Positions 1 through 26,744 of a stretch of DNA of 37,592 nucleotides are shown here, one piece after another; the stretch's first letter is position 1, and each line of letters starts with the position of its first letter. The notes under the pieces were generated by a model. It ran no database searches. It saw only the letters and a list, made by a program, of their open reading frames with translations, and was not told the origin of the DNA. The DNA lies in assembly GCA_016201195.1 (NCBI GenBank), contig JACQDI010000021.1, forward strand, positions 1-37,592, given 5' to 3'. This DNA is from Acidobacteriota bacterium (GTDB lineage: Bacteria; Acidobacteriota; Terriglobia; Bryobacterales; JACQDG01). The position numbers were made by a program, and so were the translations under genes.

Positions 1-2319
1 TTCTTCTTCGCCTCCTATCAAGGTTTCCGCAACCGCACGGCCGCCTTCGTCAACAGCGGCATCACGCCGACCGAGGGGCAGCGGGGCGGCGACTTCTCCT
101 CGTTCGCGGCCAACCAGCGGCCGGTCGATCCTTCCACCGGCAGCCAGTTCCCTGGCGGCTTGATTCCGGCGTCGCTGCTCGATCCGATGGCGCAGAACAT
201 TCTGAAACTCGTGCCGCTGCCGAACACGCCCGACGGGCGCTTCCAGGCTTCCGCCTCGTCGCAAAGCAATGACGACCAGGGGCTGTTGAAGATGGATCAC
301 CAGATCAGCGCCTCTCATAAGATCACCGGCAGCCTCTTTCTCGACCGCAACTCGGTCTTCGATCCGTTCGGCTCCGGCACGCAGATTCCTGATTACGCGC
401 GGGTAAACACCGCGTACGACCAGCGCAACGTAGTGGCAAATGAAGACTGGATCGTCACGCCGGCGTTGCTGAACCAGGTCCGGTTCAGCTACACCCTGAA
501 CAGTTACTCACAGGCGAGCCAGGTGCACACGAGCTGGTCCGACTTCGGCAGCAAGGTCACCCTCGGCGCCCTGCCGCCACGGCCGCCGCAGATCTTCGTG
601 AACGGCTTCTGGCAGATGGGAACTTTCGGCGACAACGCCATGGACCAGGCCAGCTACCGCGTGTCGGACACGCTGACCTGGATGCGCCGCGGCCACAGCA
701 TCCGCGCCGGCGGCGGCATTACCCATCACTCGTTTCTCGAACACGGCAACTGGCTCGGCGCCGGGCAGATCCGCTTCAGCGGTTCTTCCACCCGGAACGC
801 GCTGGCCGATTTCCTGCTGGGCCGCGCCAACACCTTCCGCCAGAACAACGGCCAGAACCGCGACTTCGCTTCCAAGGATTGGTTCGGTTTCTTCCAGGAC
901 GACTGGAAGGTCTCCCGCAAGTTCACGCTGAACCTCGGCCTGCGTTACGAAATCGACGAGCCGCTGGTGAGCGCCACCGATGAGTTGCAGACTTTCCGCT
1001 TCGGCGTCTCCTCGAAGGTGTTCCCCACGGCGCCCCTCGGGCTGCTGTTTCCCGGCGATCCCGGCATTCCGCGAGGCGTGATTCCGACCAGCAAGAAGAA
1101 CTTCGCCCCGCGGCTGGGCGTGGCCGTGGACCCGTTCGGCAACGGCAAGACCGCCATCCGCGCCGGCTGGGGCATCTTCTATGCGGCCACCATCGCCAAC
1201 ATCACCAGCAACCTGCAGGGCCAGCCTTTCTTGGTGGACACGACGGTGAACGTGACGCCTAACCTGAACACGCCGTATGCCAACGTACCCGGCGGGAGTC
1301 CGTTCCCGTACACGCTGGACCGCGCCAACCCGCGCTTTTCTCTTCCCATCACGGCGAGTTACATCGCCGAGAACCTGGGGATGCCGCACGTGATGCAGTA
1401 CAACTTCACCATCCAGCAGCAGTTGACGCCGCAGTGGAGCATTCAGGCCGGCTACGTGGGCAATGTGTCGCGGAAACTGTACCTGCAACGCGACGCTAAC
1501 GCGCCGGTGTACATTCCAGGGAGGTCGACCGCGGCCAATGTGAACAGCCGCCGCCCGTACCTGCCGGGAACCTTCGGCGAGATCGCCCAGACCCAGACGG
1601 CGGCCAACGCGCACTACGATTCGCTCCAGGTGAGCCTGAACCGCCGGTTCTCCCATGGCTTTACACTGATGGCCAACTTCACCTGGTCCAAGTCGATCGA
1701 CATCGCTTCCGATGACCAGCTCAATCCCACTGTGGTTTCCTTCGTCGACTCCAATAATCTGGCGCTCGACCGCGCGCCGTCGGATTTCGACACGCCGCGC
1801 CGGCTCGTGGTCTCGTACCTTTGGGAAGTGCCGGGTGTGAAACGTTGGGGCCTGGTGGGCAAGCAGCTTCTCAGCGGGTGGCAGATCAACGGCATCACCG
1901 ACCTCCGCAGCGGAAGCCCGTTCAACACCACCTCAAACATCGACAGCAATTTCGACGGCAACGGCACGGACCGTCCCGACCTGGTCGGCAATCCGAGGCT
2001 CGACACCGGCCGCAGCCGCCCGCAGCTCATCGCCCAATACTTCAATACGGCGGCATTTCGCGCCGCCTCCGGGCTGTATGGCACCGCCGGCAGGAACCTG
2101 GTTTACGGCCCGGGCGCGGTCAACTGGGACTTCTCCGCGTTCAAGAACTTCCCCATCCCGGAGAGCAGGAAGTTGCAGTTCCGAGCCGAATTCTTCAATC
2201 TGTTCAACCAGGTGAACTTCGGCAACCCGAACGCCACGCTCACCAGCCCCAACTTCGGCCGCATCCTCGGAGCGGGCGCTCCGCGGATCGTCCAGTTCAG
2301 CCTCAAGTTCTCATTTTGA
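1..2319 (+). CDS. TonB-dependent receptor, beta-barrel portion (5' end outside window)
   Basis: Frame 1 is open from nt 1 (FFFASYQGFRNRTAAF...), so the listed M at 160 is internal. The C-terminus ...LQFRAEFFNLFNQVNFGNPN...RIVQFSLKFSF is shared with the other receptor copies in the window. Confidence 0.9.
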   Translation, partial: FFFASYQGFRNRTAAFVNSGITPTEGQRGGDFSSFAANQRPVDPSTGSQFPGGLIPASLLDPMAQNILKLVPLPNTPDGRFQASASSQSNDDQGLLKMDHQISASHKITGSLFLDRNSVFDPFGSGTQIPDYARVNTAYDQRNVVANEDWIVTPALLNQVRFSYTLNSYSQASQVHTSWSDFGSKVTLGALPPRPPQIFVNGFWQMGTFGDNAMDQASYRVSDTLTWMRRGHSIRAGGGITHHSFLEHGNWLGAGQIRFSGSSTRNALADFLLGRANTFRQNNGQNRDFASKDWFGFFQDDWKVSRKFTLNLGLRYEIDEPLVSATDELQTFRFGVSSKVFPTAPLGLLFPGDPGIPRGVIPTSKKNFAPRLGVAVDPFGNGKTAIRAGWGIFYAATIANITSNLQGQPFLVDTTVNVTPNLNTPYANVPGGSPFPYTLDRANPRFSLPITASYIAENLGMPHVMQYNFTIQQQLTPQWSIQAGYVGNVSRKLYLQRDANAPVYIPGRSTAANVNSRRPYLPGTFGEIAQTQTAANAHYDSLQVSLNRRFSHGFTLMANFTWSKSIDIASDDQLNPTVVSFVDSNNLALDRAPSDFDTPRRLVVSYLWEVPGVKRWGLVGKQLLSGWQINGITDLRSGSPFNTTSNIDSNFDGNGTDRPDLVGNPRLDTGRSRPQLIAQYFNTAAFRAASGLYGTAGRNLVYGPGAVNWDFSAFKNFPIPESRKLQFRAEFFNLFNQVNFGNPNATLTSPNFGRILGAGAPRIVQFSLKFSF

Positions 2320-5368: not shown

Positions 5369-8300
5369 TTAGAAATAAAGCTTCAGGCCGAATTGTATCT
5401 GACGCGGAGCCGATACGGTGCTACTCACCACTCCAAAGTCGGGCGCGGTCAGGTTTGTGCCAGGCTGCTCGAATGTGGGAGTGTTGGTGAAATTGAAGAA
5501 CTCAGCCCGGAATTGCAGGCGAACCTTCTCGCGGACGCGGATGTTCTTCATCACCGAAAAGTCCCAGTTGAACAAGCCGTCCGTTCGGGTGCGGGGCAAA
5601 TTGCGGGGCGCGTTGCCGAATGTAAAGGGTGGAATCACGGCAAAGGCGTCGGTGTTGAACCAGCGGTCGATACTTGGGTTCGCCAAATTCGGCTCGCCCA
5701 CCACGTTTGGCCGGTTCCCACCGAAGGCCGGCGCTGGCGCCGTGATGGCGATAGGGTCTCCGCTCTCCAGCGTCAGAATGGAGTGGACTTGCCAGCCGCC
5801 CGCCAGATAGCGATAGACGGCATTCCCCGACTTTCCGAACGGCAGCTCCCAGCTCGGGCTGACCACCAGACGCATCGGCAGGTCGCTGGTCGAGATGGCG
5901 CGCTCGGCCCGCAGGTTGTCCCAATTCTGGACGCTGTTGCTGCCACCCTCGCTGAAGTTGTCATTCAGCCCGTTGCCCAGGTTGTCGTCGAGCAGCTTCG
6001 AATAGGTGTAGGCGAGAAGCACCGCCAGCCCGCGGGACATGCGCTTCTCCAGCCGCACGGTCATCGCGTGATAAATGGAATTGGCCCAGGAATCCAGACC
6101 CGAGGCGGCGGTGAACTGCGGGTACTTGCGCAGCAGAGTGGCGCGCGTCACTGTGGGCGTGCTCAAAGGCCCGACATTGATCAGCCCAGGGAAAGGATTG
6201 GGCACCAGTTCCTGAAGTTGGGCGCCTAGCGAAAGGTGAGCGGAGGGAAGGTAGGCGAACACGTGGTTGGCAGGCATGCTGACGCCGTGGTTGCCCAGGT
6301 AGCCCACCTCGAGCAGCCATCCCCCGGGCAAGTGGCGCTGGACATTGGCATTCCATTGTTCGCTGTACCCGCTGCGCATACGGCGGCTGTTTCCCGCGAT
6401 GCTGGTACCAAGGCCGGTCAGCCTTCCCTGGCTGCTGCCCGGGGGCGCCTGGATGCCTTCCGGGAAGGGACTGGTCAGGGTGTTGTAAGGGGTGAATCCG
6501 CCGTCCACCGATGTCACCATAGTGGTGAGCAGATCGAAGCCGGTTCTTCCCAATTGAACGAAAGTCCCGGTTCCCGGCAGGTAGAAGATTCCGAAACCGC
6601 CGCGGAACACCGTCTTGGGCAGCAGTTGGTAGGCGAAGCCCACACGGGGCCCGAAATCGTTGAACGAATTGTTTCGGGCGCCGCGGGACAGGCCTCCAGC
6701 ACCTGGAAAGACCAAGCCACCCTTCAAGGCCAGCCCACCGACGCTGGTCTCCACACTCGGATCGAAATTGCTAATGGCATTGAAGCGGTCGGTTATGGCA
6801 CCCTCGAATTCCCAGCGCAATCCAAGATTCAGAGTCAGTTTCGGCGAGACTTTCCAGTCGTCCTGGATAAACGCGCCGAAATTGGTCGCCGTGTAAGTAA
6901 CCGTGGTCCAGCGGCGAGCTTGTCCCGCACTCGGGGTTCCGAGAAGGAAGGTCGCCAGACCGTAACCGGCCGTGGCGCTGGCGACGTTCGGATCGGGGCC
7001 GCGCGTGAAGGTCGGGGCAAAGGTGAAGTCCAGGACGGGACCTCCCTGGCTGTTGTTGTACCGGTAGACGCGCTGCTCCGCTCCGAACTTGATCAGGTGA
7101 CCGCCCTGAATCTTCGTGAAGGCCCCGGCCGCCGACCAGGCCTCATGGGCCTGGCGGATGAGGTCGGTCTGGACGCCTCCGATTGGCGAGAGGCCGGTCA
7201 GGTTGAACCGGGGGAAAAGCGGGTACTGCATCTGGGCTCTGAGGTACGCGGGCAAGCCGAGTTCGGTTACATCGAAACCATAGCTTAGAGGAACCCGGAA
7301 GACGGTATAGCGGTTCATCCCGGCGCGGGCTTCCAGCAGCAGGTCCGGGCGGATGGTATCGGTGTAGTTGACGGCCACCGACCGGCGCGGAAAATCGGAA
7401 CCTCTGGTATTGGTCTCAGCGATGTTGCCGTAAATGTTGGCTGCGTCCCGCCTGGTCATGTCGTAGGTGAACCGGCCGGAAAGCCTCTTGGCAGGACTAA
7501 AGTTGTGGTCCACCTTGATACCGAGGACGTTCTTATCCACCGGGGAAGATCCCTGGCCAAAGAAGTTGTTGGCTTCCGTCAGAGGCGCGCCGGGGATGTT
7601 GGGAGAGGGAATGTATTTCAGCACCGCCTGCGTCACCGGGTGGATCCGGTTCGGCGGGATGATGTTGTTCGGGAAGGGATCGCGAATTCGCCTTGCCGGA
7701 TTGTTCGGGTCGGTGCGGGTCGAGTACGGGTCGTAGATTCGGATCAGGCTTCCGGAAGCGGTGAGCGTCTGGGAGAAGTTCCCTTGACGCTGGAGCAACA
7801 TGGGAACCGTGCGGAAGGTCCGGGTCTGGCCTCGTTGCGCCACCTGCTCCCAGTTGAAGAAGAAAAACGTCTTGTCCCGAACAAGGCGGCCTCCCAGAGT
7901 GCGCCGTACTGGTTGAAGGTGAGCGCAGGTCTGTCGTCGCGGCCGACCCGATTGGAGAAGAACCCGTTCGCGTTCAACACCCGGTTGCGCAGGAATTCAT
8001 ATGCGGAACCGTGAAATTCATTCGTACCGGACCTGCTGATCACATTGACCACGCCGCCTCCGGTTCGGCCATATTCGGCGCTGGCGTTGCGCGTGATGAC
8101 GCGAAACTCCTCGGTGGCATCAACCGAAGGAAAGAACAGAAAGCCGCCGGAGGTCGTCATCTCGGCCGCGATGCCATCCACCATGTAATTGTTGGCGGAA
8201 GGCGCGCCTCCGCCGATCGCCGCCCGGGAGGTCTGCCAACTGTCCACCGGCAATCCGGTGTAGGCGCCCATTCCGCGAACCCCGGGCACCAATTGGGCCA

Positions 8301-8770
8301 GTGAAAAGAAGTTGCGGCCTAGCATCGGCAGGTCCAGGATCTTCTGATTGGGCACGACAGTGCTCACGGCCGTGGTGGAGGTTTCAATCAGGGAAGGCGT
8401 GCCAGTCACCTGGATGCTCTCGGTGACCGCTCCGAGCTGGAGTACGAAATCCAGCCGCAGCACCTGCCCCTCATCCAGCAGGACGCCGGCGCATTCGATC
8501 GTCTTGAATCCCGCGTTGCGCACCCGCACCTGATAGTTGCCGCGCGGCAGCAGGGGCGCCGTGTAGTAACCGAGCTCATTCGAGGTCGCAGTGCGGGTCA
8601 TTCCGGTGTCGGTGTTAGTCACCGCGATCTCCGCGGATGGAACAACGGCGTCGCTCGAGTCCGTCACTCTTCCGGTGAGCTGGGCCGTCTGCGCAAAGGA
8701 AATGGTCGCGAAAGCTACGCACAGCAAAAAGCCCGGCCAAAAGATGCCGCGTCCAAATCTTTGAAGTCAT
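5369..8770 (-). pseudogene. TonB-dependent receptor with two reading-frame disruptions (pseudogene or assembly indels)
   Basis: ATG at 8770 has a GAGGAGG Shine-Dalgarno and encodes MTSKIWTRHLLAGLF. The frame then slips in an A5 run (8726-8730). With A4 it would read ...AGLLLCVAFATISFAQTAQLTGRVTD. A second slip lies at about 7898-7905: FNQYGA|LWEAAL should read FNQYGGTLGGRLVRDKTFFFFNWEQVAQRG, as in the paralogues. The ORF track shows this as overlapping ORFs 7744..8727 and 5369..7843. The C-terminus is IQFGLKLYF. Confidence 0.7.
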
Positions 8771-11894: not shown

Positions 11895-12409
11895 TCAGAA
11901 CCCGTACTTGAGGCCGAACTGGATCACCCTGGCCTGGCCGGCGCTCAGAATCCTGCCAAAATTCGCGCTGTTCAAGGTGCTGTTCGGATTGTTCAGGTTG
12001 ACCTGGTTGAAGAAGTTGAAGAACTCGGAACGGAACTGGAGACGGCGGCGCTCCCGCAGCCGGAGTGTCTTGAAAAACGAAACCGTCCAGCTCATCGAGC
12101 CCGGGCCGTAAAGGAGATTGCGGCCGGCGTTACCGGCGAAGCCGTCGGGCGCCGCCACAAACACGGCCGTGTTGAAGTACCCCGCGATCCGCTCGTCCCT
12201 GGGCCTGTCCTCCGAAAGACGGGGATTGCCGGTGAGGTTCGGGCGGTCATTGCTGCTGCCGTCCAGGTTCGTATCGCGGCCCGAGACGATGTTGAACGGG
12301 CTGCCGCTGTCGAACCGGGTGATTCCATTGAGCTGCCAGCCGCTTAGCACGTGCCGCCCGATCCGGCCCCAACGACGGATCTCGGGGATCTCCCACACCT
12401 CTTCTGAGC
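11895..12409 (-). pseudogene. C-terminal ~170-aa remnant of a TonB-dependent receptor
   Basis: WEIPEIRRWGRIGRHVLSGWQLNGITRFDSGSPFN...LQFRSEFFNFFNQVNLNNPN...RVIQFGLKYGF aligns with the last ~170 aa of receptor 1..2319. Homology begins within a few nt of the MarR stop codon (12410-12412). Plug, N-terminal domain and promoter are all absent. Confidence 0.75.
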
Positions 12410-12922
12410 CTACCTGAAGTTCTGCTCTTTGCTCTTTCCTGAACCTTCTTCTGGCCGACCCGTGCTTCTGGAATTCGTCATAACCTCGGCGACGCGCTCC
12501 AACGTGCCCAATACCGTCACTCGCACCGCCCGCGGGAAACATTCCTCCAGCTTCTGCCGGAGGTCCTCGCAGCTTTCGACCAGCAACCCAAGCAGCCGGC
12601 GCCCGGCAGCCGTCAGGTAAACGCGGCGCGACCGGCCATCCTGAGCGTGAATCTTCCGCCGGATGAGGTTCCGCTTCTCCAGCAGGGCGACCATGGCGGC
12701 AATCGTATTAGGGTCGGAAAACATCCGGCGCGCCAGTTCCTTCTGCGTGATGCCTCCCTGCTGGTTCAGCACCTTCAACAGGACGAACTGATCTGCGGTA
12801 GCGTCGAGTGGGGCAAAACGAAACTCAACTGTGCGGTGCATCGTCAGATAGGCGCCGCGAAGCCTCATAGCCGTAGACCAGGGAAACGCGCGGGGGTCCT
12901 TGCGAATCGATCTCTTCACCAT
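12410..12922 (-). CDS. MarR-family transcriptional regulator
   Basis: Winged-helix core: DQFVLLKVLNQQGGITQKELARRMFSDPNTIAAMVALLEKRNLIRRKIHAQDGRSRRVYLTAAGRRLL. I prefer the ATG at 12922 over the listed TTG at 12940. Confidence 0.85.
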   Translation of the reverse strand: MVKRSIRKDPRAFPWSTAMRLRGAYLTMHRTVEFRFAPLDATADQFVLLKVLNQQGGITQKELARRMFSDPNTIAAMVALLEKRNLIRRKIHAQDGRSRRVYLTAAGRRLLGLLVESCEDLRQKLEECFPRAVRVTVLGTLERVAEVMTNSRSTGRPEEGSGKSKEQNFR

Positions 12923-23290: not shown

Positions 23291-25066
23291 TCACTCGTCG
23301 AGCCATCGCAAAGAAACTTCCTTGAGATTCATCACCGCGGCGCCGGGTTTGCTGAGGGCTTTCACGGTCAGCGTCGATCTGCCGGCTTTCAGCGGGAACC
23401 GGCCGAGCCGAAGTCGCGCCCAATGCATTTCGGGGTAGACGTTCTCGGGAATGACGCATTTGCTCGGTTTGCGGGTCATCGGGGTGGGCTGTGTGATCGT
23501 GGCCTGGAGACTCTGGCCCGCCGCGCTGACAGCAATCTTTGCGCCAACGTCGCCTTGCGGGCAGAGATAGCTGAGCGTGACTTCGTACTGGCCGGCGCGA
23601 ACAACGTCGATGTCCCAATACACGGAGTCTTCGAGGCGGTTCCAACCGGTGATCCAGTCGTGCGCGTATCCCACCCCGCCGTGGAATCTTAGGGCGCCGT
23701 GAAAGTAACTCTGCGGGGCCGGCAGGATCACCGGGTTTTCTTCGGCGTAGCCGGCGGGAATCGGCCGGCGGTGGAAACCCCGCTCGCCGAGAGCCTCGCG
23801 ATACCAGGCTTCGTAGGCAGACCGCAACTCCGTTACCTTTTGCGGATGCTTACTGGCGATGTTGTTCTGCTCGACGGGGTCCACGATCATATCGTACAGC
23901 TCTTCTCCATTAACCAGATTGAAGCGTTGTGTTCGCACGGCGCCGGGATACATGGACGCGGGGTCCTCCAGGCTCTCGCGGTGCGTGAAGACCATGCGCT
24001 CAGGCCAGTTTTGCCGCTCGCCGAACAACAGCGGCCGCAGGCTGCAGCCATCAATCCGCAGCCCCTTCGGCTGGACGACGCCACATAGATCGAGAAGAGT
24101 CGGGAAGACGTCAATGTGAGCGGCGATTGTGTTGACGCGCTTGCCCGCTTCCAGACGCTCCGGCCAGCGGATGAAGAATGGCGCTCGCACGCCGCCTTCA
24201 TAAACGCTTCCCTTAGACCCGCGCAGGCCCGCGTTGAACCGCCGCCCATTGGGACCGTTATCGGTCAAGAAAATCACGATCGTGTTCTTGGAAAGACCGA
24301 ACTGATCCAGCCGGGCCAGCAACCGGCCGATGTTCTCATCCAGGTTGGTGACCATTGCGTAGACCGCGGCCGTGGTCCCCGGCAGTCTGGCTGCTTCAAA
24401 AGGGCGGAAATAGGATACTGGCACCTGGAAGGGAGAGTGGGGCGCGTTGTAGGCCAAATAAAGAAAGAAGCGCCTCTCGCGGTTGCCCTCCAGGAACCGG
24501 ATCGATTCGTCGGTGAGCGCGTCAGTGACATATCCCTTGGTCTGGACCGGCTTGCCGTTGCGCTCCAGCTCGGAATCGAAATAATTCATCCAGTGTCCGG
24601 TGCGGAATCCCACAAATTCATCGAATCCCTGGCCATGGGGGAGGTAGGGGTAATGCTCGCCGAGATGCCATTTCCCGAACAGCGCGGTACGGTATCCGGC
24701 GCCGCGGAGAGCTTCGGCGATAGTGGTCTCGCCGGTATGCATGGTTTCCCGGCCGTGGGTCACGCCATAGACGCCGCACCGCACGTTGTAACGTCCGGTC
24801 AACAGACTCGCGCGCGTCGGCGCGCAGACGGGGGAGACATAGAAGCGGGTGAACTCGACCCCCTGGCGGGCCAGCTTATCGAGGTTCGGCGTCTTCAGGT
24901 GCGGATTGCCGTGCAAAGAGAGATCGCCGTAGCCCTGATCGTCGCTCATGACGAGCAGGACGTTGGGCGGCCGGCGGGTTTGTCCCGAGCCGGGGGCTGA
25001 TAGAGCCATGGTCCCGCCTGCCAGGGCCGTCATCCATTCGCGTCGGGTGAGATTAGGACTCTTCAG
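23291..25066 (-). CDS. Cys-type (formylglycine) sulfatase, probable Tat substrate; start codon uncertain
   Basis: LLVMSDDQGYGDL...SPVCAPTRASLLTGRY (C-x-P-x-R). The first ATG (25033) falls inside a twin-arginine motif (LTRREW-M-TALAGG). The only plausible upstream in-frame start is CTG at 25066, which overlaps the preceding stop as CTGA. Confidence 0.85.
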   Translation of the reverse strand: MKSPNLTRREWMTALAGGTMALSAPGSGQTRRPPNVLLVMSDDQGYGDLSLHGNPHLKTPNLDKLARQGVEFTRFYVSPVCAPTRASLLTGRYNVRCGVYGVTHGRETMHTGETTIAEALRGAGYRTALFGKWHLGEHYPYLPHGQGFDEFVGFRTGHWMNYFDSELERNGKPVQTKGYVTDALTDESIRFLEGNRERRFFLYLAYNAPHSPFQVPVSYFRPFEAARLPGTTAAVYAMVTNLDENIGRLLARLDQFGLSKNTIVIFLTDNGPNGRRFNAGLRGSKGSVYEGGVRAPFFIRWPERLEAGKRVNTIAAHIDVFPTLLDLCGVVQPKGLRIDGCSLRPLLFGERQNWPERMVFTHRESLEDPASMYPGAVRTQRFNLVNGEELYDMIVDPVEQNNIASKHPQKVTELRSAYEAWYREALGERGFHRRPIPAGYAEENPVILPAPQSYFHGALRFHGGVGYAHDWITGWNRLEDSVYWDIDVVRAGQYEVTLSYLCPQGDVGAKIAVSAAGQSLQATITQPTPMTRKPSKCVIPENVYPEMHWARLRLGRFPLKAGRSTLTVKALSKPGAAVMNLKEVSLRWLDE

Positions 25067-26250
25067 CGTTGGCCGTCCGGGCGCCGCTTCAGAAGCTCTT
25101 CGGCCGCGCGGACTTGTCCTTCCGAGCCTGCCGCGCGGCGGGCCGCGGCTCCACCGTCAGGGTCGACTTCCCAACGCACGACATACTCCTGCGTGACCGG
25201 CTTGCACCACTTCTCCGAGCAGGCAAAGTAGCGGAAGACGATCCGCGCGGGCTCCTTCGAGTTGCCGCGGTCGGCGTCCACGAGAAACTCCCGCGGGTCC
25301 GCGTCGGCCTCCGCCTCCACTTTCGGTCCCTGTCCTTTGCTGGGCGAAATCTGGACGCCCTCGGGGGGATGGAACTCGTACTGCACGGGGGCTACCAGAT
25401 TGTTCCAGTGCACGCCATACAGCGGGTCAAGATGAAAACCGAGGTAGAGCTTCCCTTTGCCGGAGCGAAGGAAATTCCCATCAGCCTCGACACGCGGCTT
25501 AACGTAGAATGGCTCCTTGCTCTTTTGAAGCTGGGGCTCGATCCTCAGCGCCAGGTACCGCTCCGGGAGCTTGACCCGCGGGACGATGCCCGTAGGAGCA
25601 TGCTTCGGCGGCGGCTCCACCTTCAGGTTGAGGTCCGACACCTTGGTCGGGTTCTCCACTGGCCCCACCAGCTTTTCCAAGTCCTTGCGCAGGGCGTCCG
25701 GATCGCTCCAGCCGCGCTTGCGAACGATTTTGCCCTCCGGATCGAGCAGGTATTCCGAGTTGGGAGCATCACCAGTGGCGTGCTTGAGCTCGTTAGACAT
25801 GGTGTCGCAGACCCAGGGAATCTCCGTGCCGAGCGTGCGCCGGGCTTCCTTGATCTGCATCAGGCGCTCCTCGAGGGTGACCGGCGTGACGTAGCCGTGG
25901 AGCTCAGGGTGCGCCAGCGCCTTATACAAGTAGAAGAATTGAACGCCCTTCGGCGCGTAATCTCGATAGACCGTCTCCAAACTGGGGACGTTTTTCCGGA
26001 AGGGCGGTCAAGTCAGGCAGCCGTTGACGATGACTGTGTACTTCCCCTTGAGGCTTCTGGTGTTGAACCGCTTGCCCTCGGCATCGTGAATGTCTACCTC
26101 GGGGAAGTGGTCACCCACTTTCAGGCGGAACGCCTGAAACCGGTCCTCCAAAGCCTCCCGTGCGGACTTGCCCTGCGTGGGTTGAGCCAAGGCCACGCAT
26201 ATCGTGGAAAGGGCTGCAAGGAGCGCCGCTGCAGTTTGCGAGAATCTCAT
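25063..26250 (-). CDS. Secreted iodothyronine-deiodinase-like thioredoxin-fold protein with in-frame UGA (candidate Sec at codon 26010..26008) fused to a DsbD-alpha-like domain
   Basis: ATG at 26250 lies 7 nt after AGGAGG and gives the signal peptide MRFSQTAAALLAALSTICVALAQP. The frame reads ...KGKYTVIVNGCLT-TGA-PPFRKNVPSLETVYRDYAPKGVQFFYLYKALAHPE...LEERL...PWVCDTMSN...EYLLDPEGKIVRKRGW...LRKDLEKL. TGA is the only interruption: it is followed by nine sense codons, then the TTG at 25980 listed as the start of the next ORF, in the same frame. The C-terminal ~200 aa end in FRYFACSEKWCKP, which resembles the DsbD N-terminal domain. Confidence 0.7.
25969..26010 (-). promoter_or_regulatory. Candidate bacterial SECIS hairpin starting within the UGA
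   Basis: mRNA U-GACCG-CCCU-UCCGGA-AAAACGUCCCCAG-UUUGGA-GA-CGGUC. Lower stem: 26009-26005 pairs with 25973-25969 (5 Watson-Crick bp). Upper stem: 26000-25995 pairs with 25981-25976 (4 Watson-Crick bp plus 2 G.U). The 13-nt apical loop contains GU at +22/+23 from the U of UGA. Confidence 0.4.
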
Positions 26251-26252
26251 GT

Positions 26253-26660
26253 TCACCTCCTGTATTTCTGTCTGTTCCTACCTCTCGGGCCTGCTCGCCA
26301 GAGTTCTGTGTTTGCAAGACGCCACACTACCCAGCCGCGCCGCAGCCCCGCCGACTCGATCCGATCTTTGATCCGGCGGATCTCCGCTTCCGTCCATGGG
26401 CCCGGGGAGCGGCCGACATCGCTCGAGCGCGGGATGACGCGGCCCGCCGGCGACCAGGTGGGAGCACCAGGGCCGACCATCGTCACCCACTCCACCCCCA
26501 TTTGCCGAATGAATGCCAGCGAGGCATCGGAAAGGTCGAGCGCCCGCAGTGTGAGCTTGAGCTCGCCCTCCAGAGTCGCCGCCGCCCGCAACACTAGCCT
26601 GCTACCGGTCGCGGCGCCGATGCTTTGCAACAACCGTCGTCGGGACACTTGCGCTGGCAT
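26253..26660 (-). pseudogene. 5' fragment of a Tat-exported TIM-barrel enzyme gene (UxuA / xylose-isomerase-like)
   Basis: MPAQVSRRRLLQSIGAATG (Tat motif) followed by LDLSDASLAFIRQMGVEWVTMV...WTEAEIRRIKDRIESAGL. The sequence then degenerates and stops after about 135 codons, directly on the RBS of the next gene. Full-length relatives have about 350 aa or more. Confidence 0.4.
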
Positions 26661-26744
26661 GGCAGTATCTGAGCACCCACCCCTTAGCCGCTTGGAAGGT
26701 CCTCTCAAGCATGGGTTAGCTTCCTTCCTGCGGTTCCAAGCCTC

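What the first reader, a model, noticed from the sequence alone, without database searches (positions are those of the whole stretch)
25063..26250. Candidate selenoprotein: deiodinase-like thioredoxin fold with UGA at the catalytic position, split into two ORFs by the ORF track
Seen in sequence: ORFs 26008..26256 and 25063..25980 are in the same frame and are separated only by TGA (26010-26008) plus nine sense codons. Joined, they read KGKYTVIVNGCLT-[TGA]-PPFRKNVPSLETVYRDYAPKGVQFFYLYKALAHPE...VTLEERLMQIKEARRTLGTEIPWVCDTMSNELKHATGDAPNSEYLLDPEGKIVRKRGWSDPDALRKDLEKLVG. Established knowledge: vertebrate iodothyronine deiodinases have the active site FGS(C/A)T-U-P(S/P)F. Downstream they carry ...YIEEAH..DGW, ...L(Q/E)DRL..., ...P(V)VVDTM.N..., ...ERLYII.EG.I.YKG..GP... 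and ...LEKL. Every one of these blocks has a counterpart here in the same order, and the TGA falls exactly on the Sec position, giving a C-x-x-U redox motif. The protein has a Sec-type signal peptide. Its ~200-aa C-terminal domain ends in FRYFAC-SEKW-CKP, which resembles the Cys pair of the DsbD N-terminal (alpha) domain that hands electrons to periplasmic thioredoxin folds. Inference: this is a periplasmic CxxU reductase carrying its own electron-relay domain. No deiodinase-like protein of this architecture has a described function in bacteria, as far as I know. A standard gene caller would report two hypothetical proteins.
Basis: partly seen in the sequence, partly recalled or inferred. Interest (0 to 1): 0.9.

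Follow-up and report, generated by a model that had tools for sequence, protein, structure and literature searches.

The report
Exported deiodinase-like selenoprotein gene, mis-annotated
The two "hypothetical proteins" are one gene for an exported selenocysteine-containing redox enzyme, distantly related to thyroid-hormone deiodinases; the same gene carries the same UGA in at least 80 bacterial species, is split by gene callers wherever I looked, and has no known function.

Summary
On the minus strand, one reading frame runs from ATG 26250 to the stop at 25065-25063 and is interrupted only by TGA 26010-26008. GenBank splits it into HY238_00580 (80 aa) and HY238_00575 (305 aa).

This is not a nonsense mutation. 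All 80 related loci retrieved from GTDB species genomes carry TGA at this codon. They come from Acidobacteriota, Planctomycetota, Verrucomicrobiota, Latescibacterota, Krumholzibacteriia and Poribacteria. Protein sequence is conserved on both sides of the TGA. Full-length homologues read GCLT-C-PxF at the same position.

A hairpin 17 nt downstream is conserved at the RNA level. Its loop G is invariant although the codon encodes Ser, Arg or Gly. Stem wobble positions are frozen, and the basal pair covaries.

The N-domain is a redoxin fold. It matches ResA/TlpA and deiodinase Dio3 about equally well, and U aligns with Dio3 Sec170. It scores below the Pfam deiodinase threshold.

The C-domain is a beta-sandwich weakly related to DsbD-alpha. 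Its Cys pair is kept in 29 of 29 homologues with Cys at the U position and lost in 9 of 9 without it.

The best reading is an exported Sec oxidoreductase with a built-in disulfide relay. The substrate is unknown, and Sec machinery could not be checked in this genome.

The parts
25063..26250 (-). Complete selenoprotein gene: 395 codons plus stop, with one in-frame UGA. GenBank splits it into HY238_00580 and HY238_00575.
   Evidence: sequence, translation; the two annotated halves P0001 and P0270.
26256..26261 (-). Shine-Dalgarno AGGAGG, 5 nt before the ATG at 26250.
   Evidence: Read directly. The 80-aa GenBank product P0270 uses this ATG.
26185..26250 (-). Predicted Sec-type signal peptide (residues 1-22, MRFSQTAAALLAALSTICVALA|QP).
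   Evidence: By inspection: basic n-region, hydrophobic core, A-x-A before Q23, no twin arginine. Most orthologues start with a similar hydrophobic leader. No signal-peptide predictor was available.
25657..26133 (-). Redoxin / deiodinase-like thioredoxin-fold domain (residues ~40-198).
   Evidence: Pfam AhpC-TSA 7.5e-7 and Redoxin 1.3e-6, both above cut-off; T4_deiodinase 1.4e-3, below cut-off. NCBIfam deiodinase_rel 3.8e-13, below cut-off. PDB profile hits ResA 1.8e-6 and Dio3 2.2e-5. AF2 model of Cys homologue P0087 and Foldseek.
26017..26019 (-). Cys78 codon (TGC), 3 residues before Sec; candidate resolving cysteine.
   Evidence: Present in all 80 Sec-form loci, read from the motif G-C-[LI]-[TS]-U-P. 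Invariant in the 30-sequence N-domain alignment A5.
26008..26010 (-). UGA decoded as selenocysteine (Sec81).
   Evidence: TGA in 80/80 related loci. Cys at this column in full-length homologues. Aligns with Sec170 (Cys in the crystallised construct) of Dio3 4tr3 and with the first Cys of ResA CxxC.
25972..25990 (-). Bacterial SECIS-like hairpin CGUCCCCA-GUU-UGGAGACG. The stem starts 17 nt after UGA and the loop 25 nt after it. Loop is 25980-25982.
   Evidence: fold, -7.8 kcal/mol; 80-sequence alignment; 88% of cells paired vs 26-52% for shifted controls; basal pair CG47/GC14/UA2/AU1; RNAalifold finds the same helix; third-position entropy 0.54 bits inside vs 1.40 outside; loop G invariant although the codon is AGT, AGG or GGT.
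25909..25911 (-). His114 codon of the invariant L-A-H-P motif; aligns with the AHP motif of Dio3.
   Evidence: Invariant in A1, A3 and A5. Aligned with the AHP of Dio3. Retained even in redox-dead homologues.
25165..25557 (-). C-terminal beta-sandwich domain (residues ~232-362), a distant DsbD-alpha-like fold.
   Evidence: AF2 of window residues 199-395, pLDDT 87.7. Foldseek: only weak hits, with DsbD N-terminal domains recurring. Pfam DsbD_N in 17/55 homologues, best 1.2e-5.
25204..25221 (-). Cys344 (25219-25221) and Cys349 (25204-25206), motif Y-F-A-C-x4-C-K-P; proposed relay disulfide.
   Evidence: Invariant in A3, A4 and A7. Both kept in 29/29 homologues with Cys at the Sec position and both lost in 9/9 homologues with E/A/T/D there.
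23291..25066 (-). Downstream sulfatase gene on the same strand. It abuts or overlaps the stop codon and is probably co-transcribed. It is context, not a conserved partner.
   Evidence: Pfam Sulfatase 6e-65. A Tat-like leader lies in frame from CTG 25066. A sulfatase lies within ~7 kb in only 18 of 81 loci, mostly one clade.

Best explanation
Window 26250-25063 (minus strand) is a single gene for an exported, selenocysteine-containing oxidoreductase.

Shown: UGA 26010-26008 is conserved at this codon in every orthologue examined. Cys replaces it in full-length homologues. It is followed by a hairpin conserved at the RNA level, with the spacing and loop G of a bacterial SECIS element. So the ribosome most likely inserts Sec81 with SelB and tRNA-Sec.

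Shown: the N-domain is a redoxin-type thioredoxin fold on the deiodinase/TlpA branch. Sec occupies the nucleophile position, which is the same as the Dio Sec, the Prx peroxidatic Cys and the first Cys of ResA.

Inferred mechanism: after Sec-pathway export, Sec81 attacks an oxidised substrate, such as a disulfide, a peroxide or another electrophile. The resulting selenenyl intermediate is resolved by the invariant Cys78 to a selenenylsulfide. That bond is then reduced by the Cys344/Cys349 pair of the fused DsbD-alpha-like beta-sandwich. The pair is in turn recharged by a membrane DsbD/CcdA/ScsB-type electron transporter.

The substrate is unknown.
For: One ORF with a single TGA and a good SD. 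TGA in 80/80 loci from at least six phyla, with conserved flanks. Cys homologues read GCLTCPxF.

Hairpin: 8 bp; 88% of cells paired vs 26-52% for shifted controls; compensatory CG/GC/UA/AU at the base; found independently by RNAalifold. Wobble positions in the stem are frozen: CCC or TCC 80/80; a third-position G in the Leu/Met codon 80/80; GAG 79/80. The same amino acids elsewhere use many codons. The loop G is invariant across Ser/Arg/Gly codons.

TGA is an ordinary stop in this genome: the selenoprotein gene itself ends in TGA, and the two upstream TonB-dependent receptor ORFs end at TGA 26747-26745 and 33916-33914.

Fold: Pfam AhpC-TSA and Redoxin above cut-off. Profile hits to ResA (1.8e-6) and Dio3 (2.2e-5), with U on Sec170. 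AF2 and Foldseek give ResA TM 0.82-0.85, Dio2 TM 0.72, and the two-domain DipZ C-terminal region as top hit.

Relay: the C-domain Cys pair co-occurs perfectly with a Cys at the Sec site, 29/29 kept and 9/9 lost. DsbD_N Pfam hits in 17/55 homologues. The Cys pair aligns to DsbD-alpha Cys103/109.

Gene callers split or truncate it wherever I looked: nearly all of the 120 best hits lack the N-terminal ~90 aa, and all 21 hits to the N-terminal piece are 58-122 aa.
Against: No selA, selB, selC or selD, and no tRNA-Sec, in the window or in about 0.9 Mb of related loci. The rest of the MAG could not be searched.

For single sequences the hairpin is only modestly stable (-5.8 to -12.3 kcal/mol; z -0.5 to -2.8). 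No Rfam family matches.

C-domain homology to DsbD-alpha is weak: no Pfam hit for the window protein itself, Foldseek E >= 0.02 among generic Ig-like folds, a sequence profile finds no PDB relative, and hhalign probability is 22%.

No DsbD/CcdA gene or other partner is conserved next to the gene.

The nine redox-dead homologues may stem from only two or three loss events. There is no experimental evidence of any kind.
Confidence: 0.8

Rival explanations
1. A pseudogene: an ordinary Cys codon (TGC/TGT) mutated to TGA in this decaying region of the MAG. Nothing functional is made past codon 80.
For: The window does contain damaged genes: a TonB-dependent receptor split by a frameshift at ~7744-7843, and receptor fragments at 160-2319 and 11895-12542. 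TGC to TGA is a single transversion.
Against: The same TGA is present in 80/80 loci from different species and phyla. Both flanks are under purifying selection (A5). A structured RNA follows it. The downstream 314 codons are intact.
Confidence: 0.01
2. Two real genes, or programmed termination. An 80-aa secreted peptide ends at UGA, and a separate 305-aa protein starts at the L/M-E-T codon. The hairpin would serve termination or re-initiation rather than Sec insertion.
For: Gene callers model it this way. The codon they use is TTG or ATG in most loci.
Against: The break falls in the middle of a thioredoxin fold, right at its active site. Full-length Cys homologues are one polypeptide. In 14 of 80 loci the supposed start codon is CTG. 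No SD precedes it. The two pieces are always in frame, with exactly nine codons between them.
Confidence: 0.02
3. UGA is read through, but not as Sec. It would be decoded as Cys, Trp or Gly by near-cognate decoding or a variant code.
For: The Sec machinery could not be shown in this genome. Cys works at this position in homologues.
Against: Neighbouring genes end in TGA, so the codon is a normal stop here. No TGA-recoding genetic code is known to me in these phyla. The conserved hairpin with a loop G at the right distance is the SelB-type signal (PMC1088965 describes the small apical loop with a guanosine). Acidobacteria and Planctomycetes are known Sec users (PMC1794560, PMC4807772).
Confidence: 0.03
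4. It is a selenoprotein, but the function is metal handling rather than catalytic reduction. Cys78, Sec81 and His114 would form a Sco/SenC-like site for Cu or another soft metal in the cell envelope, and the C-domain cysteines and EF-hands would be further metal sites.
For: JGI names some N-terminal fragments SCO1/SenC/PrrC family (P0274, P0287). A Sco1/SenC structure (4hde) is among the weak PDB hits. His114 is invariant and is kept even when the Cys/Sec residues are lost. EF-hand calcium-binding modules are attached in 32/55 homologues. The 2026 review notes that several bacterial selenoproteins are thought to bind metals (PMC13188914).
Against: Sequence and structure similarity is higher to ResA/TlpA and to deiodinases than to Sco. 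The spacing is C-x-x-U, not Sco's C-x-x-x-C. The coupled retention and loss of a distant Cys pair fits disulfide exchange better.
Confidence: 0.12

Closest known systems
Vertebrate iodothyronine deiodinases Dio1-3 (Pfam PF00837; structures 4TR3 Dio3, 9H48 Dio2)
   Same: Thioredoxin/peroxiredoxin-like fold. Sec at the same structural position within G-x-x-T-U-P-P-F. A downstream Y...A-H-P motif, the L-E-(E/D)-R helix of the deiodinase-specific insertion, and D-T-M-x-N all align. The Dio2 core superposes on the model of a Cys homologue (TM 0.72, 22% identity).
   Different: Scores below the Pfam gathering threshold. Has a cleavable signal peptide instead of an N-terminal membrane anchor. Cys is at -3 rather than -2. 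By my reading of the alignment and my recollection of Dio3 numbering, Glu200 and Cys239 of Dio3 are not conserved. It carries an extra beta-sandwich domain with a Cys pair. It occurs in bacteria, where thyroid hormones are not expected (PMC1088965).
Bacterial 'deiodinase-like' selenoproteins of the Sargasso Sea / GOS surveys (PMC1088965, PMC2398784; listed in PMC13188914 as PF00837, motif UxxC)
   Same: Bacterial, Sec-containing, PF00837-related, with Cys homologues and a bacterial SECIS. Function unknown.
   Different: The listed motif is UxxC; here it is C-x-x-U-P-P-F. No DsbD_N-like or EF-hand domain is mentioned for that family. The related NCBIfam model NF038285 matches only at 49.6 bits against a cut-off of 250, and only over its C-terminal half. 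I could not retrieve those sequences to compare them directly.
ResA / TlpA / CcmG extracytoplasmic thiol-disulfide oxidoreductases (PF08534, PF00578)
   Same: These are the best Pfam and PDB sequence matches and the best structural matches. They are exported and have a redoxin fold with an N-terminal beta-hairpin.
   Different: Those proteins use W-C-x-x-C. Here the first Cys is Sec and the second Cys position is Phe. This family has the deiodinase-type insertion and a fused second domain.
DsbD (alpha and gamma periplasmic domains) and M. tuberculosis DipZ C-terminal region (2HYX, 5CYY)
   Same: A thioredoxin-fold domain is combined with a beta-sandwich domain in the cell envelope. DipZ is the top Foldseek hit over ~340-350 columns. 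The Cys pair on the beta-sandwich aligns with DsbD-alpha Cys103/Cys109. Pfam DsbD_N matches 17/55 homologues.
   Different: No membrane (beta/CcdA) domain. Domain order is Trx then sandwich. Homology of the sandwich is weak. To my knowledge the DipZ sandwich is a carbohydrate-binding-module-like domain. Sec is not known in DsbD.

Membership tests
Bacterial selenoprotein (Sec-decoded UGA) | In-frame UGA conserved at the same codon in orthologues, with conservation on both sides. | tested here: met
   TGA in 80/80 loci. Flanks conserved (A5; A2).
Bacterial selenoprotein (Sec-decoded UGA) | Homologues with Cys aligned to the UGA. | tested here: met
   GCLTCPxF in P0004, P0055, P0087, P0099 and 25 further cluster representatives.
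Bacterial selenoprotein (Sec-decoded UGA) | bSECIS: a stem-loop shortly 3' of UGA with a small apical loop containing G. The 16-37 nt UGA-to-loop distance of the bSECISearch model is quoted from memory; the loop G is described in PMC1088965. | tested here: met
   8-bp hairpin; loop 25 nt after UGA; loop G invariant; covariation and frozen wobble sites.
Bacterial selenoprotein (Sec-decoded UGA) | selA, selB, selC (tRNA-Sec) and selD present in the same genome. | not testable with these tools
   None in the window or in the 80 loci. Other contigs of the MAG and the carrier chromosomes could not be read.
Bacterial selenoprotein (Sec-decoded UGA) | Selenium incorporated into the protein (75Se labelling or mass spectrometry). 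| not testable with these tools
   Requires an experiment.
Iodothyronine deiodinase family (Pfam PF00837) | Score at or above Pfam's gathering threshold (27 bits). | tested here: not met
   18.4 bits, E 1.4e-3 for the joined protein. Best of the full-length homologues E 4.9e-5; P0087 19.5 bits.
Iodothyronine deiodinase family (Pfam PF00837) | Sec in the motif G-x-x-T-U-P-(P/S)-F at the active-site position. | tested here: met
   The HMM alignment to Dio3 4tr3 puts U81 on Sec170 (Cys in the construct), with G, T, P, P and F identical.
Iodothyronine deiodinase family (Pfam PF00837) | Deiodinase-specific insertion with the A-H-P histidine and the L-E-D-R helix, and D-T-M-x-N. | tested here: met
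   Aligned. H114, E128, R129, D149, M151 and N153 are invariant or nearly so.
Iodothyronine deiodinase family (Pfam PF00837) | Reductive deiodination of iodothyronines; N-terminal membrane anchor. | not tested
   No activity data. The N-terminus looks like a cleavable signal peptide, not an anchor (by eye).
NCBIfam NF038285 'deiodinase family protein' | Score at or above the curated cut-off (250 bits) over the whole 347-position model. | tested here: not met
   49.6 bits, covering model positions 177-325 only.
Redoxin / AhpC-TSA (PF08534, PF00578; ResA/TlpA-like) | Score at or above Pfam's gathering thresholds. | tested here: met
   AhpC-TSA 29.6 bits (cut-off 26) and Redoxin 28.7 bits (cut-off 26.6).
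Redoxin / AhpC-TSA (PF08534, PF00578; ResA/TlpA-like) | C-x-x-C dithiol at the N-terminus of helix 1 (ResA/TlpA type). | tested here: not met
   U aligns with the first Cys. The second Cys position is Phe. The other Cys lies at -3.
DsbD N-terminal (alpha) domain (Pfam PF11412) | Pfam match at or above the gathering threshold (25 bits). | tested here: not met
   No hit for the window protein at E <= 1. P0087 scores 17.6 bits. 17/55 homologues match at E <= 0.01, best 1.2e-5.
DsbD N-terminal (alpha) domain (Pfam PF11412) | Ig-like beta-sandwich similar to solved DsbD-alpha structures. | tested here: inconclusive
   A confident beta-sandwich model (pLDDT 87.7). DsbD-alpha entries recur (1l6p, 1jpe, 3pfu TM 0.54, 6dps), but all at E >= 0.02 and mixed with unrelated Ig-like folds.
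DsbD N-terminal (alpha) domain (Pfam PF11412) | Redox-active Cys pair equivalent to Cys103/Cys109. | tested here: inconclusive
Co-retention and co-loss with the active site supports a redox role. No biochemical test.

The most novel reading that the evidence does not exclude
The family is a bacterial envelope counterpart of the thyroid-hormone deiodinases in function as well as in fold. It would be a Sec-dependent reductive dehalogenase acting on natural organohalogens, or on another Se-X chemistry substrate, outside the cytoplasm. A built-in DsbD-alpha-like disulfide relay would recharge it, and calcium would regulate it through the EF-hand modules found in most members. It would then be the ancestral type of deiodinase chemistry. 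It would also be a widespread, entirely unannotated selenoenzyme of soil and marine Acidobacteriota, Planctomycetota and sponge symbionts.
Probability: 0.08. Interest if true: 0.85.

Novelty: new variant of a known kind. Interest (0 to 1): 0.6.

Why it matters
Three reasons.

(1) Annotation. In every database entry I saw, the gene is split or truncated into 'hypothetical' or 'EF-hand domain-containing' proteins. No NCBIfam model captures it. So the selenoproteomes of Acidobacteriota, Planctomycetota and their relatives are undercounted, and the active-site half of the enzyme is missing from protein databases.

(2) Biology. What bacterial deiodinase-like proteins do has been an open question since 2005. 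This family keeps the Sec and the deiodinase-specific motifs, and it adds a domain whose cysteines track the active site. That gives a concrete, testable catalytic scheme, with mutants to make: U81C, C78S, C344S and C349S.

(3) Evolution. Sec forms, Cys forms and redox-dead forms all exist within one family. This makes a natural series for asking why Sec is kept so strictly; all 80 best-matching species carry it.

Tried and rejected
- The Rfam scan at gathering thresholds found nothing in the window.
- ARAGORN found no tRNA-Sec in the window or in 60 loci.
This says little, because only ~13 kb per genome is held.
- The look-up of encoding contigs did not know P0001, so the rest of the MAG stayed out of reach.
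I therefore modelled a full-length Cys homologue (P0087) and the window's own C-domain instead.
- A sequence profile of the C-domain against PDB sequences gave only noise.
- Folding the single window sequence over 86 nt was not significant (z -0.63). The case for the hairpin rests on comparison, not on energy.
- Gene-neighbourhood clustering of 81 loci found no partner conserved across phyla.
- I considered a functional link to sulfatases, because the window gene abuts one. I set it aside. A sulfatase lies within ~7 kb in only 18/81 loci, mostly through synteny within Bryobacterales and in convergent orientation. These lineages are sulfatase-rich, so that rate is near what chance would give; this last point is my estimate, not a computed value.
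- A scan of the window for other in-frame TGAs with coding-like flanks found no second selenoprotein candidate. The split TonB-dependent receptor is a frameshift, not a TGA.
- The terminator-like call at 25972-25990 on the + strand is the reverse complement of the SECIS hairpin plus a non-conserved A-run.

Full report
**1. The observation**

The minus strand of 25063-26250 is one continuous reading frame. The ATG at 26250 is preceded at 5 nt by AGGAGG (26261-26256). Eighty sense codons follow, then TGA at 26010-26008, then 314 sense codons, then the stop at 25065-25063.

The mechanical ORF list shows the two pieces in the same frame. GenBank annotates them as two hypothetical proteins: HY238_00580 (80 aa, P0270) and HY238_00575 (305 aa, P0001), in a MAG labelled Acidobacteria bacterium.

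**2. Is the TGA a lesion or a codon?**

A protein search with the joined sequence (U written as C) returned 1352 relatives. Nearly all of the best 120 cover only the last 67-77% of the query, so they start just after the TGA. A search with the N-terminal 94 residues returned only 58-122-aa fragments that stop at it. Gene callers therefore break this gene the same way wherever I looked.

I fetched DNA for relatives from one genome per GTDB species. Of the stretches that matched, 468 encode a relative, and the best 80 were kept. They come from Bryobacterales, Solibacteraceae and other Acidobacteriota, from Planctomycetota (Pirellulaceae, Planctomycetaceae), and from Verrucomicrobiota, Latescibacterota, Krumholzibacteriia, Poribacteria and 'Marinacidobacterales'. 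Identity to the window protein is 51-70%.

In all 80, the codon aligned with 26010-26008 is TGA, inside the motif G-C-(L/I)-(T/S)-TGA-P-P-F. The roughly 40 residues before the TGA are as well conserved as those after it (A5).

Four of the 120 close relatives, and about 25 more cluster representatives from the exhaustive search, are full length and read G-C-L-T-C-P-x-F. TGA is an ordinary stop in this genome. It ends the selenoprotein gene itself and the two upstream TonB-dependent receptor ORFs, at 26747-26745 and 33916-33914.

Conserved UGA, conserved flanks and Cys homologues are the standard comparative signature of a selenoprotein. They exclude a private nonsense mutation.

**3. The SECIS element**

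In a gap-free alignment of 80 sequences (12 nt before the TGA to 69 nt after it, A2), the most conserved stretch is (C/G)GUC(C/U)CC(A/G)-G(U/G)(U/C/A)-UGGAGAC(G/C). This is window 25990-25972.

It forms an 8-bp hairpin whose stem starts 17 nt after UGA and whose loop starts 25 nt after it.
- For the helix as I specified it, 88% of cells are paired, against 26-52% when the 3' arm is slid by 1-3 columns.
- The basal pair is CG in 47 sequences, GC in 14, UA in 2 and AU in 1.
- Another pair shows CG, UG and UA.
- RNAalifold predicts the same helix without being told.

The constraint is on the RNA, not the protein:
- The Pro/Ser codon in the stem is CCC or TCC in 80/80, while the two Pro codons right after the TGA use all four synonyms.
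- The Leu/Met codon always ends in G, and Glu is GAG in 79/80.
- Mean third-position entropy is 0.54 bits inside the hairpin and 1.40 outside.
- The loop G is invariant although its codon encodes Ser (AGT), Arg (AGG) or Gly (GGT).

A small apical loop with a guanosine is the described hallmark of bacterial SECIS elements (PMC1088965). The distance also fits the bSECISearch model as I remember it. On its own the hairpin is only moderately stable, at -7.8 kcal/mol in the window and -5.8 to -12.3 elsewhere. No Rfam model matches. The evidence here is therefore comparative.

**4. What could not be shown**

The window has no sel genes and no tRNA-Sec. It is a polysaccharide-utilisation-like stretch with TonB-dependent receptors, GH97, GH127 and GH129-like enzymes, esterases and a sulfatase. 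The 80 loci have none either. I had no access to the rest of the MAG or to the carrier chromosomes. Acidobacteria and Planctomycetes are documented Sec users (PMC1794560, PMC4807772), but this genome's machinery remains untested.

**5. The N-domain**

With U replaced by C, Pfam gives:
- AhpC-TSA at 29.6 bits and Redoxin at 28.7 bits, both just above their cut-offs;
- T4_deiodinase at 18.4 bits, below its cut-off of 27.

NCBIfam's 'deiodinase family protein' model NF038285 matches at E 3.8e-13, but at 49.6 bits against a cut-off of 250, and only over its C-terminal half.

A profile of 30 orthologous N-domains finds ResA (4nmu, 1.8e-6) and mouse Dio3 (4tr3, 2.2e-5) in the PDB. The Dio3 alignment is the longer one, covering 103 of 164 positions.
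- ...VLvFGcLT-U-PPF... on ...VLNFGSCT-U(C)-PPF...;
- F.yiY...AHP on FLIIYIEEAHP;
- LEeR on LEDR;
- DTM.N on DTMAN.

U81 falls on Sec170. In the ResA alignments U falls on the first, nucleophilic Cys of C-x-x-C, and the second Cys position is the Phe of U-P-P-F. So the 'CxxU' is not a thioredoxin-type dithiol. Sec sits where Dio has Sec and peroxiredoxins have the peroxidatic Cys, and the invariant Cys78 sits three residues upstream.

An AlphaFold model of the Cys homologue P0087 (pLDDT 82) superposes on ResA (TM 0.82-0.85) and on the Dio2 core (TM 0.72, 22% identity). Its top Foldseek hit is the two-domain C-terminal region of M. tuberculosis DipZ, a DsbD-like protein.

My reading is that this is a redoxin of the deiodinase/TlpA branch. 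It is deiodinase-related, but by the curated thresholds it is not a member of PF00837.

**6. The C-domain**

The window's own residues 199-395 fold with confidence into a beta-sandwich (pLDDT 87.7). Foldseek finds nothing at E <= 1e-3. DsbD N-terminal domains recur among the weak hits (1l6p, 1jpe, 3pfu with TM 0.54, 1jzd, 6dps, 1z5y, 2k0r), mixed with unrelated Ig-like folds.

Pfam DsbD_N matches 17 of 55 homologues at E <= 0.01, best 1.2e-5, but does not match the window protein. hhalign against E. coli DsbD-alpha places C344 and C349 on the two cysteines of that sequence, which I take to be Cys103 and Cys109. Homology is therefore plausible but weak.

Independent evidence for a redox role comes from co-evolution. 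Among 38 read-through homologues, all 29 with Cys at the U position keep both C-domain cysteines. All 9 with E, A, T or D at that position have lost both. The L-x-H-P and W..D.M motifs persist in those nine. The nine may represent only a few loss events, but the association has no exception.

**7. Architecture and localisation**

The N-terminus looks like a Sec-type signal peptide (R2, hydrophobic core, A-L-A|Q; by eye). Most orthologues have similar leaders. EF-hand pairs are attached C-terminally in 32/55 homologues, and N-terminally in others. The window protein has none.

Other variants exist: a tandem duplication of the whole module (P0121), and 240-500-residue N-terminal extensions. At 50% clustering, 258 representatives match the family profile at E <= 1e-30.

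**8. Mechanism (inferred)**

After export, Sec81 attacks an oxidised substrate. Cys78 resolves the selenenyl intermediate to a selenenylsulfide. The C344/C349 pair of the fused domain reduces that bond, as DsbD-alpha reduces its thioredoxin-fold clients. A membrane DsbD/CcdA/ScsB-type transporter then re-reduces the pair.

Shown: the single gene, the Sec codon and its signal, the fold, the position of Sec, and the coupling of the two cysteine/selenocysteine sites.

Inferred: the order of electron transfer, the donor and the substrate.

No partner gene is conserved nearby. A metal-handling role (Sco-like, using C78, U81 and H114) is the main functional rival. A deiodinase-like dehalogenase is the most novel possibility.

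**9. Comparison with what is known**

Bacterial 'deiodinase-like' selenoproteins were reported from the Sargasso Sea and GOS surveys, with no function assigned (PMC1088965, PMC2398784). A 2026 inventory of 119 prokaryotic selenoprotein families lists them as PF00837 with motif UxxC. It lists no redoxin/deiodinase-like family with C-x-x-U, a DsbD_N-like domain or EF-hands (PMC13188914). No NCBIfam selenoprotein model matches, and no database entry I saw is annotated with Sec. I could not retrieve the survey sequences, so overlap with that older family cannot be excluded.

I therefore class this as a new variant of a known kind.

**10. Verdict**

This is a real selenoprotein gene that annotation has split, and it belongs to a large family whose members were split or truncated in every database entry I saw. 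Interest is moderate to high. New computational selenoprotein families are found regularly. This one, however, is widespread and tied to the unresolved question of what bacterial deiodinase relatives do, and it offers a specific, testable relay mechanism.

Noticed in passing
window 25031-25066 (minus strand): In the frame of the downstream sulfatase, the sequence upstream of the ATG at 25033 reads L-K-S-P-N-L-T-R-R-E-W-M-T-A-L-A-G-G-T-M-A-L-S-A-P-G. This is a twin-arginine (Tat)-like signal. The only possible start before the RR is CTG 25066-25064, which overlaps the selenoprotein stop (C-TGA-A). That suggests translational coupling with a non-canonical start, or a base change from ATGA.
   Followed up: partly
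window 5369-8727 (minus strand); also 160-2319 (+) and 11895-12542 (-): A TonB-dependent receptor (CarboxypepD_reg plus OMP_b-brl_4) is split into two overlapping ORFs in different frames (7744-8727 and 5369-7843). This is a frameshift or an assembly error, not an in-frame TGA. Two further receptor pieces lack their N-terminal parts; one of them runs to the window edge.
   Followed up: partly
window 25972-25990 (+ strand): The terminator scan flags the reverse complement of the SECIS hairpin followed by TTTTTCC. The T-run comes from the window's CGG-AAA-AAC codons and is not conserved in other loci, so it is probably coincidental.
   Followed up: yes
L021:1394 and L031:1382; L035 and L036: Some genomes carry a second copy of the gene. 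The extra copies about 4.7 kb upstream in two Bryobacterales loci also have TGA and the hairpin, but they are truncated: the one in L021 stops after 103 codons, apparently because of a frameshift. Genome OY760074.1 has two copies; the 84 nt around the TGA are identical in both.
   Followed up: partly
P0215, P0217, P0222, P0227, P0237, P0245, P0246, P0250, P0252 (homologues, not in the window): These 'redox-dead' relatives have E, A, T or D at the Sec position and have lost both C-domain cysteines. They keep the L-x-H-P and W..D.M motifs. Most carry N-terminal extensions of 250-480 residues, which suggests a non-redox (binding?) function for the scaffold.
   Followed up: partly
P0121, P0135, P0202, P0132, P0150 (homologues): Architectural variants of the Cys form: a tandem duplication of the whole two-domain module (P0121), large N-terminal domains of other kinds (P0135, P0202), and N-terminal EF-hand arrays (P0132, P0150). 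Several TGA-containing loci also have EF-hands upstream of the redoxin domain (L035, L038, L040, L045, L050, L059, L062, L065, L076).
   Followed up: no
window 26253-26708 (minus strand): The 494-nt gap between the upstream TonB-dependent receptor and the selenoprotein gene contains a 151-aa ORF with no Pfam match and atypical codon-position GC (0.62/0.61/0.72). It is probably non-coding. No promoter-like site was found by the sigma-70 scan.
   Followed up: partly
P0274, P0287 (N-terminal fragments of homologues): JGI names these fragments 'cytochrome oxidase Cu insertion factor (SCO1/SenC/PrrC family)'. This annotation was transferred to a truncated active-site half, but it points to the metal-binding alternative.
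   Followed up: no
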